From Escherichia coli (GTDB taxonomy: Bacteria > Pseudomonadota > Gammaproteobacteria > Enterobacterales > Enterobacteriaceae): a DNA stretch of 2,519 nt. Positions within the stretch are counted from its first letter, which is position 1; every line of letters starts with the position of its first letter. The stretch is taken from assembly GCF_003334355.1 (NCBI RefSeq), contig NZ_QOWP01000073.1; one strand, given 5' to 3'. Below are positions 2,346 through 2,519 of this stretch, in pieces. Under the pieces are notes generated by a model. It saw only the letters and a program-made list of their open reading frames with translations, was not told the origin of the DNA and did no database searches. The position numbers and the translations under genes are program-made.

Positions 2346-2501
2346 TTAAATAAGGTTAATTACCTTATCAATCTCAGCAAGAGGTAAATTTGCCATCTCT
2401 GCAACGTCTTCCCGAGACATTCCTTTACTCAGAAGACGCTGGGCGCTGATGAATCCCCTAATGATTTTGGTAAAAATCATTAAGTTAAGGTGGATACACA
2501 T
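2346..2501 (-). CDS. Short convergent ORF (51 aa from ATG at 2501) with a DUF4351-like tail resembling Rpn (YhgA-like) nucleases; candidate rpnC/yadD 3' remnant or stand-alone RpnS-like small protein
   Basis: Minus-strand translation MCIHLNLMIFTKIIRGFISAQRLLSKGMSREDVAEMANLPLAEIDKVINLI with stop TAA (2346-2348). The tail LLSKGMSREDVAEMANLPLAEIDKV fits the recalled 'LLxxGMxxExIAxxTGLSxEEI' pattern of Rpn-family C-terminal domains. In-frame TGA at 2514-2516, and the other two minus frames are also stopped (2480-2482, 2506-2508), so no long ORF continues to the window edge. Absent from the ORF track, presumably for length. Start codon uncertain (ATGs at 2501, 2480, 2420, none with a good SD). Confidence 0.4.
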   Translation of the reverse strand: MCIHLNLMIFTKIIRGFISAQRLLSKGMSREDVAEMANLPLAEIDKVINLI

Positions 2502-2519
2502 CTTGTCATATGATCAAAT

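What the first reader, a model, noticed from the sequence alone, without database searches (positions are those of the whole stretch)
2346..2519. Rpn-family (DUF4351-like) C-terminal module as a short ORF convergent with panC, with no long reading frame upstream
The 51-aa minus-strand ORF ends with a motif characteristic of the C-terminal domain of Rpn/YhgA-like nucleases (PDDEXK-type recombination-promoting nucleases). In K-12 the gene at this position is yadD/rpnC, and the 73-nt spacing to panC seen here fits that arrangement as I recall it. Recent work (recalled, not verified here) reports that Rpn C-terminal domains are also made as separate small proteins (RpnS) from internal starts and act as intragenic antitoxins to the toxic full-length nuclease, with an antiphage role. 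All three minus frames are closed by stops within 2480-2516, so in this strain the module is either a stand-alone small protein gene or the remnant of a disrupted rpnC. An orphan antitoxin-like module would be a notable configuration.
Basis: partly seen in the sequence, partly recalled or inferred. Interest (0 to 1): 0.6.

Follow-up and report, generated by a model that had tools for sequence, protein, structure and literature searches.

The report
IS10 insertion truncating rpnC, junction ORF
The 51-codon reading frame is not a gene: it arises where an IS10 (or Tn10) transposable element cut into the end of the E. coli K-12 rpnC gene, an ordinary insertion mutation.

Summary
A 51-aa minus-strand ORF lies at 2346-2501, 73 nt from panC, and all three minus frames are closed by stops at 2480-2516.

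The cause is an insertion sequence. Window 132-2445 matches K-12 MG1655 (yadC 3' part, panB, panC, last 100 nt of rpnC) with no mismatch. At 2446 it switches to the first 74 nt of the outside end of IS10 (74/74 identical). The upstream stops, the ATG at 2501 and the first 18 codons are all IS10 sequence. Only residues 20-51 come from rpnC (RpnC residues 269-300).

In K-12 the RpnC_S antitoxin is about 60 aa (M241/M242 to I300). The remnant keeps only its last 32 residues. It has lost the ribosome-binding site, the start codon and most of helix 1, including the KGIE repeats that set partner specificity. It is not an orphan antitoxin module.

The 9 bp next to IS10 (CGCTGGGCG) fit the IS10 target consensus. 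The far side of the element is outside the window, so IS10 versus Tn10 is undecided. The window's other end (1-131) is an IS1 end, so this looks like a short-read contig from a K-12 laboratory derivative, bounded by repeats. The finding is ordinary and of low interest.

The parts
2346..2445 (-). 3' remnant of rpnC (yadD): third base of codon 268, codons 269-300, and the TAA stop
   Evidence: 100/100 identical to K-12 MG1655 rpnC (L001 4715-4814). The first mismatch to K-12 is at 2446.
2437..2445 (.). 9-bp IS10 target CGCTGGGCG, the copy next to the visible IS10 end; a second copy is expected on the far side
   Evidence: It lies directly against IS10 nt 1. It matches 5 of the 6 specified bases of NGCTNAGCN and all of the relaxed consensus NPuCNN-NGPyN (consensus as quoted in PMC4574204).
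2446..2519 (+). nt 1-74 of the outside end of IS10, cut off by the window end; the transposase gene would follow on the + strand
   Evidence: 74/74 identical to the IS10 end of Tn10 on plasmid R478 and to a complete 1329-bp IS10 in E. coli J53. In both records the adjacent CDS is annotated as an IS4-like ISVsa5 family transposase.
2491..2519 (-). 3' part of the IS10 antisense RNA, RNA-OUT (model positions 42-70 of 70)
   Evidence: Rfam RF00240: 30.7 bits, E = 0.0029, flagged as cut at its 5' end by the window edge.
2346..2501 (-). chimeric 51-aa junction ORF: residues 1-18 from IS10, residue 19 spans the junction, residues 20-51 equal RpnC 269-300
   Evidence: The ATG at 2501-2499 lies inside the 3' arm of RNA-OUT. 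The 18 nt upstream (AUUUGAUCAUAUGACAAG) contain no Shine-Dalgarno sequence (read).
2277..2307 (.). GC-rich hairpin between the convergent panC and rpnC genes, a terminator-like site
   Evidence: 12 pairs, then a T-rich tail. Identical to K-12.
1421..2272 (+). panC, intact
1..131 (+). right end of IS1, joined to yadC at nt 870 of its coding sequence (context only: the other repeat that bounds the window)
   Evidence: Window 1-131 is found exactly in an annotated IS1A copy (L003). The K-12 match starts at 132.

Best explanation
The window comes from an E. coli K-12 derivative in which an IS10 element, alone or as one end of Tn10, has transposed into rpnC. The break is after the second base of codon 268, 100 nt before the end of the gene. 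What remains next to panC is the last 32 codons of rpnC, fused to the outward-facing strand of the IS10 outside end. That IS10 strand happens to carry an in-frame ATG 56 nt in, and stops in all three frames beyond it. This produces a 51-codon chimeric ORF that looks like a stand-alone Rpn C-terminal module. It is a junction artefact, not a gene. It has no ribosome-binding site, its start codon sits in the 3' stem of RNA-OUT, and it lacks the first 28 residues of RpnC_S. Those residues include most of the long helix 1 and its KGIE repeats, which mediate dimerisation and specificity for RpnC_L. Shown here: the identity to K-12 up to 2445, the identity to IS10 from 2446, and the position of the break. 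Inferred: a second copy of CGCTGGGCG on the far side. Also inferred: both RpnC_L and RpnC_S now end at R271, because either IS10 end begins CTGA, which gives ...GCC CAG CGC TGA. The expected net effect is inactivation of the rpnC toxin-antitoxin gene, which is tolerated because rpnC deletion strains are viable.
For: There are no mismatches to MG1655 across 132-2445, and a run of mismatches starts at 2446. K-12 continues ...GACGCTGGGCG|AATTCCTGAC..., whereas the window continues ...GACGCTGGGCG|CTGATGAATCCCC.... Window 2446-2519 is 74/74 identical to the IS10 ends in R478 and J53, and the J53 copy is 1329 bp long with a 9-bp duplication. 1,845 plasmid records hold at least 80% of the query 2440-2519, which includes this IS10 end. 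Rfam places the RNA-OUT 3' half at 2491-2519 on the minus strand. The target fits the IS10 consensus. The Rpn-family profile matches only residues 20-47 of the peptide. K-12 RpnC has GGAGGGGAG-TCT-ATGATG at M241/M242, and the KGIE repeat begins 11 residues later. That falls in the 8-20 residue range reported for RpnS proteins. A genuine stand-alone RpnC_Ss (65 aa, strain cS53a) has its own Shine-Dalgarno sequence and the TLAQWFEEKG helix-1 region that the 51-aa ORF lacks. A single-sequence AlphaFold model of RpnC_S puts the break inside the helix at residues 21-34 (pLDDT 78). A complete natural analogue exists: rpnB::IS10 in ETEC1747, with target CGCTGGGCA duplicated on both sides. A delta-yadD::kan strain (Keio JW5010) is used as a neutral linked marker.
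Against: Only one junction is in the window. The transposase gene, the second end and the target duplication are therefore not seen. None of 5,426 complete E. coli genomes carries this junction, and neither do the metagenome contigs; the peptide is also absent from the protein-position index. The event is thus documented only by this window. The iTIS of RpnC_S was placed from the sequence and the paper's general rule, not read from the paper's figure.
Confidence: 0.94

Rival explanations
1. The ORF is a real stand-alone small-protein gene, an orphan RpnS-type antitoxin kept after loss of the nuclease part.
For: Stand-alone RpnS genes exist, including RpnC_Ss copies downstream of rpnC in some strains (PMC10400941; strain cS53a). 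The last 32 residues are identical to RpnC.
Against: The start codon and the first 18 residues are IS10 terminal sequence. There is no ribosome-binding site. Only 32 of about 60 RpnC_S residues remain, and the missing part holds the KGIE repeats in helix 1. In the paper, changing the repeat number by a single repeat already abolishes antitoxin activity. The flanking DNA is base-for-base K-12, where the gene is full length.
Confidence: 0.02
2. The junction is an assembly artefact: a contig end wrongly extended into a repeat, with rpnC intact in the real genome.
For: Both ends of the 2519-nt window stop inside multicopy insertion sequences (IS1 at 1-131, IS10 at 2446-2519), which is typical of a short-read contig. 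No other public record searched shows the junction.
Against: The switch happens exactly at nucleotide 1 of IS10, next to a 9-mer that fits the IS10 target consensus. A random misjoin would not be expected to do that. No sequence is shared between rpnC and IS10 at the joint that could mislead an assembler.
Confidence: 0.03
3. The remnant is transcribed by read-through from the outward IS10 promoter pOUT. The 51-aa fusion, or a shorter product from the internal ATG at 2420, keeps helices 2-3 and retains some activity.
For: pOUT and RNA-OUT point toward the remnant on the same strand. Activation of adjacent genes by IS10 outward promoters is established knowledge (Simons et al. 1983 and related work, listed in the references of PMC4574204).
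Against: The Rfam alignment places the 3' end of RNA-OUT at 2491, so the ATG lies within its 3' stem. There is no Shine-Dalgarno sequence. The N-terminal 28 residues of RpnC_S, with the partner-specificity repeats, are absent. Nothing here measures expression.
Confidence: 0.03

Closest known systems
IS10 / Tn10 insertion mutations in E. coli K-12 laboratory strains
   Same: The exact IS10 outside-end sequence starts at its nucleotide 1. The adjacent 9-mer fits the known target preference. RNA-OUT lies at the expected place. The host sequence is otherwise identical to K-12.
   Different: This particular site, rpnC codon 268, is not present in any of the 5,426 complete genomes searched. The second end and the duplication are outside the window, so IS10 alone and Tn10 cannot be told apart. 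The 74 nt extend 4 nt past the 70-bp end found in the mini-Tn10 scar of XL10-Gold, and they follow native IS10 rather than that scar's linker.
rpnB::IS10 in E. coli ETEC1747 (NZ_CP122722.1)
   Same: IS10 lies in an rpn paralogue, in the same relative orientation, at an almost identical 9-mer (CGCTGGGCA against CGCTGGGCG). PGAP annotates the two gene pieces as pseudogene fragments.
   Different: That insertion lies further upstream, leaving 76 codons. Its 3' piece still holds a whole RpnB_S reading frame from the internal Met (LMTIADRL...; the RpnB_S start was not verified). Here the RpnC_S frame itself is cut.
RpnC_S / RpnC_Ss small antitoxin proteins (Zhong et al. 2023, PMC10400941)
   Same: The last 32 residues are identical to the C-terminus of K-12 RpnC_S.
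   Different: It has no internal promoter, ribosome-binding site or start codon of its own. It lacks residues 1-28, which hold most of helix 1 and the KGIE repeats. Its N-terminal 19 residues are foreign, encoded by IS10.

Membership tests
IS10 (IS4 family) insertion | Terminal sequence of IS10 beginning at its nucleotide 1 | tested here: met
   74/74 identity of 2446-2519 to the IS10 ends of R478 Tn10 and of J53.
IS10 (IS4 family) insertion | Insertion at a site fitting NGCTNAGCN or NPuCNN-NGPyN | tested here: met
   CGCTGGGCG at 2437-2445 matches 5 of 6 specified bases of the strict consensus and all of the relaxed one.
IS10 (IS4 family) insertion | 9-bp direct duplication of the target on both sides | not testable with these tools
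   The far junction lies beyond 2519. No other record of the junction was found.
IS10 (IS4 family) insertion | Transposase gene and second terminal inverted repeat | not testable with these tools
   Only 74 nt of the element are in the window.
IS10 (IS4 family) insertion | RNA-OUT antisense RNA near the outside end, reading outward | tested here: met
   Truncated Rfam RF00240 hit at 2491-2519 (-), model positions 42-70. Its 30.7 bits are below the 41-bit gathering score because only the 3' part (29 of the model's 70 positions) is in the window.
RpnS-type antitoxin (intragenic or stand-alone) | Own translation start with a ribosome-binding site, and an internal promoter | tested here: not met
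   The K-12 site (GGAGGGGAG-TCT-ATGATG, M241/M242) lies about 85 nt beyond the break and is replaced by IS10. The ORF's ATG is IS10 sequence with no Shine-Dalgarno sequence.
RpnS-type antitoxin (intragenic or stand-alone) | Complete three-helix domain including the long helix 1 with the four-residue repeats | tested here: not met
   Only residues 29-60 of the 60 remain. The alignment with K-12 RpnC_S and with a genuine RpnC_Ss shows the helix-1 region missing. The model places the break inside the helix at 21-34. The role of the repeats is described in PMC10400941.
RpnS-type antitoxin (intragenic or stand-alone) | Sequence similarity to the Rpn C-terminal tail | tested here: met
   32/32 identity to RpnC 269-300. 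TIGR01784 positions 246-273, E = 3.4e-4.
RpnS-type antitoxin (intragenic or stand-alone) | Pfam DUF4351 (PF14261) match | tested here: inconclusive
   There is no hit for the peptide, but also none for full-length K-12 RpnC. The test therefore does not discriminate for the RpnC lineage.
RpnS-type antitoxin (intragenic or stand-alone) | Neutralises a cognate RpnL nuclease | not testable with these tools
   This needs an SOS-reporter or growth assay like those in PMC10400941.

The most novel reading that the evidence does not exclude
The insertion leaves, on the far side of IS10, an RpnC_L truncated at R271 that keeps the whole nuclease domain. Both it and the internally started small protein lose helices 2-3. 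If that truncation uncouples toxin from antitoxin, or if the 3' remnant is expressed from pOUT and still binds RpnC, the strain would be a natural dissection of the Rpn C-terminal domain.
Probability: 0.03. Interest if true: 0.3.

Novelty: already known. Interest (0 to 1): 0.08.

Why it matters
It matters mainly as a caution. Short ORFs at contig ends that resemble a gene's tail should be checked against insertion-sequence termini before being read as orphan modules. For the strain, it means rpnC is disrupted (and yadC too, by IS1). This is relevant only if the strain is used in phage-defence or DNA-damage work. It adds nothing new to Rpn biology.

Tried and rejected
- **Pfam, peptide and full RpnC:** there was no DUF4351 hit for either, only weak DUF2802 and HTH_3 matches. 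Pfam cannot decide the question.
- **PDB sequence search with RpnC_S:** it did not return the RpnA_S crystal structure, only a designed repeat protein and weak helix-turn-helix-like matches.
- **Independent copies of the junction:**
  - The one complete genome covering the query (XL10-Gold) is a false join. It has a mini-Tn10 scar beside the panC stop and an intact rpnC.
  - Exact look-up of the 51-aa protein found nothing.
  - The metagenome scan for the 33-nt junction found nothing.
- **Source of the insertion:** I tried to tie it to the mapping-set marker zad-220::Tn10, which I recall mapping near 3.2 min. The Nichols 1998 paper is not held. The papers that mention the marker give no coordinates, and CAG12025 is not found. 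This remains an unverified lead.
- **Supplement of PMC10400941:** it is not held, so the published RpnC_S start could not be read directly.
- **Other Rfam hits in the window:** the miRNA and snoRNA families score far below their gathering scores and are chance matches to hairpins.

Full report
**Observation.** It lies at 2346..2501 on the minus strand, is 51 aa long and starts with ATG: MCIHLNLMIFTKIIRGFISAQRLLSKGMSREDVAEMANLPLAEIDKVINLI. panC (1421-2272, + strand) ends 73 nt before the ORF's stop codon. Minus-strand stops at 2514-2516, 2506-2508 and 2480-2482 close all three frames. The description is accurate.

**What the sequence is.**
- A megablast of the whole window against 5,426 complete E. 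coli genomes never extends past 2445. In K-12 strains it covers 132-2445 at 100% identity.
- A base-by-base comparison with MG1655 (locus L001) shows no mismatch from 132 to 2445 and a run of mismatches from 2446.
- In K-12 this region is yadC - panB - panC, then a convergent 903-nt rpnC, then panD.
- K-12 reads ...AGAAGACGCTGGGCG|AATTCCTGACTTAC... across the point where the window reads ...AGAAGACGCTGGGCG|CTGATGAATCCCCTAATG....
- The 74 nt from 2446 to the window end are identical (74/74) to the outside end of IS10. This holds for Tn10 on plasmid R478 and for a complete 1329-bp IS10 in E. coli J53 that has a 9-bp duplication. In both records the adjacent CDS is annotated as an IS4-like ISVsa5 (IS10R-type) transposase.
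- The query 2440-2519, which includes this IS10 end, is held at 80% coverage or more by 1,845 plasmid records.
- Rfam independently recognises the 3' part (model positions 42-70 of 70) of the IS10 antisense RNA, RNA-OUT, at 2491-2519 on the minus strand. The hit is flagged as cut by the window edge.
- The 9 nt next to the IS10 end, CGCTGGGCG, match 5 of the 6 specified bases of the classical IS10 hotspot NGCTNAGCN. They match all of the relaxed consensus NPuCNN-NGPyN (consensus as quoted in PMC4574204).

**Anatomy of the 51-aa ORF.**
- The break falls after the second base of rpnC codon 268.
- Residues 20-51 of the ORF are RpnC residues 269-300. Residue 19 spans the joint. Residues 1-18, the ATG at 2501 and every upstream stop are IS10 sequence.
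- The ATG sits in the 3' arm of the RNA-OUT stem.
- The 18 nt before it (AUUUGAUCAUAUGACAAG) contain no Shine-Dalgarno sequence (read).
- The profile evidence agrees. NCBIfam's Rpn-family model TIGR01784 matches only residues 20-47, to the last 28 profile positions (E = 3.4e-4, 20.5 bits). The intact 60-aa RpnC_S matches positions 218-273 at 57.5 bits, above the 52.1-bit cutoff.
- Pfam gives no DUF4351 hit for the peptide. It gives none for full-length K-12 RpnC either, which matches only Transposase_31 at residues 7-207. The 'DUF4351-like' label is therefore not supported, but the RpnC identity is direct.

**Is it an orphan antitoxin?**
- Zhong et al. [quoted passage not shown] RpnS blocks the cognate full-length nuclease.
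- The RpnA_S crystal structure is a dimer of three-helix bundles joined through the long first helix. Four-residue repeats in that helix set specificity. Adding one KGIE repeat to RpnC_S abolishes its action on RpnC_L.
- In K-12 rpnC the internal start is the ATGATG at M241/M242, preceded by GGAGGGGAG. The KGIE repeat starts 11 residues later, within the 8-20 residue range the paper reports. RpnC_S is therefore about 60 aa.
- The remnant keeps only residues 29-60. It has lost the start codon, the ribosome-binding site and presumably the internal promoter. It has also lost most of helix 1, including the repeats.
- A single-sequence AlphaFold model (pLDDT 78) places the break inside the helix spanning residues 21-34.
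- A genuine stand-alone RpnC_Ss does exist between panC and rpnC in strain cS53a. It is 65 aa, annotated 'RpnC/YadD family protein', and has its own Shine-Dalgarno sequence and the TLAQWFEEKG helix-1 segment. The 51-aa ORF aligns to it only over the last 30 or so residues.
- The window's panC-rpnC spacer is the 73-nt K-12 spacer, so there is no extra RpnC_Ss copy here.

**Mechanism and consequences.**
- Shown: the break position and the identities on each side.
- Inferred: IS10 made its usual 9-bp staggered cut at CGCTGGGCG. The far side therefore reads [IS10 end]-CGCTGGGCG-AATTCC....
- Both IS10 ends begin CTGA, so the upstream rpnC frame would read ...GCC CAG CGC TGA. RpnC_L would then end at R271 and RpnC_S at its residue 31, whether the element is IS10 alone or Tn10.
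- The likely outcome is a null or crippled rpnC. Strains with yadD deleted are viable and are used as neutral linked markers.
- pOUT points toward the remnant, so some read-through transcription is conceivable. Translation of the chimeric frame is unlikely for the reasons given above.

**Provenance.**
- The window's left end (1-131) is the right end of IS1, joined to yadC at nt 870 of its coding sequence.
- Together with the IS10 end, this makes the 2519-nt window look like a short-read contig bounded by repeats, from a K-12 derivative.
- No complete genome holds either junction. The apparent full-coverage hits are two pieces joined by the tool from nearby but different insertions.
- The 51-aa protein is not on record and the junction is absent from the metagenome contigs.
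- The 74 IS10 nucleotides run 4 nt past the 70-bp end seen in the mini-Tn10 scar of XL10-Gold. They follow native IS10 (GATCAAAT) rather than that scar's linker. This argues for native IS10 or Tn10, or a derivative with long ends.
- I recall that the mapping marker zad-220::Tn10 lies near 3.2 min, which is this locus. I could not verify its site.

**Rivals.**
- An assembly misjoin is the only serious alternative to a real insertion. It is unlikely, because the switch occurs at exactly nucleotide 1 of IS10, beside a consensus-like target.
- A functional stand-alone antitoxin is contradicted by the origin of the start codon and by the missing helix 1.

**Verdict.** This is a known kind of event: IS10 insertional disruption of a known gene. 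The ORF is a by-product of the junction. Interest is low.

Noticed in passing
window 1-131 (junction 131/132): The left end of the window is the right end of IS1, joined to yadC at nt 870 of its coding sequence, so yadC is also disrupted. No complete E. coli genome has this exact junction. Several genomes carry IS1 128 bp or 417 bp further upstream in yadC, in some cases with the upstream fimbrial genes deleted (folK-IS1-yadC').
   Followed up: partly
L006 (NZ_CP122722.1, ETEC1747) 2285-4513: This is a natural rpnB::IS10 allele: a complete 1329-bp IS10 with the 9-bp duplication CGCTGGGCA, almost the same 9-mer as here, and the same relative orientation. Both sites encode Ala-Gln-Arg (GCC CAG CG). 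There the 3' piece (76 codons) still contains a whole RpnB_S reading frame from the internal Met, so it may be a real case of an RpnS coding unit separated from its nuclease.
   Followed up: partly
L002 (NZ_CP081008.1, XL10-Gold) 3001-3311: A mini-Tn10 scar of about 311 bp (an IS10 outside end, then a 70-bp inverted end with a linker) sits directly after the panC stop region. It is joined to a truncated yfbM, a gene from a distant part of the K-12 map. panC and panB are therefore not adjacent to rpnC in that strain.
   Followed up: partly
L007 (NZ_CM176587.1, cS53a) 1798-1995 (-): A genuine stand-alone 65-aa RpnC_Ss gene ('RpnC/YadD family protein') lies between panC and a 306-aa rpnC. The tail of that rpnC carries a long run of RQEV/IQEV four-residue repeats instead of KGIE.
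   Followed up: partly
window 498-551: A strong hairpin (GTAGCAGCACTG...CAGTGCTGCTAC) lies just after the yadC stop and before panB. It is probably the yadC terminator. It is the cause of the spurious miRNA-family hits in Rfam.
   Followed up: no
window 2512-2515: A GATC site lies at IS10 nt 67-70. From established IS10 biology, this is the Dam methylation site that overlaps the pIN -10 region and couples transposase expression to replication.
   Followed up: no
K-12 RpnC tail (L001 4715-4900): Pfam DUF4351 does not detect the C-terminal domain of K-12 RpnC at E <= 10, although RpnS proteins are annotated as DUF4351 in some species (PMC10400941). The rpnC 3' region is present in 5,425 of 5,426 complete E. 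coli genomes.
   Followed up: partly
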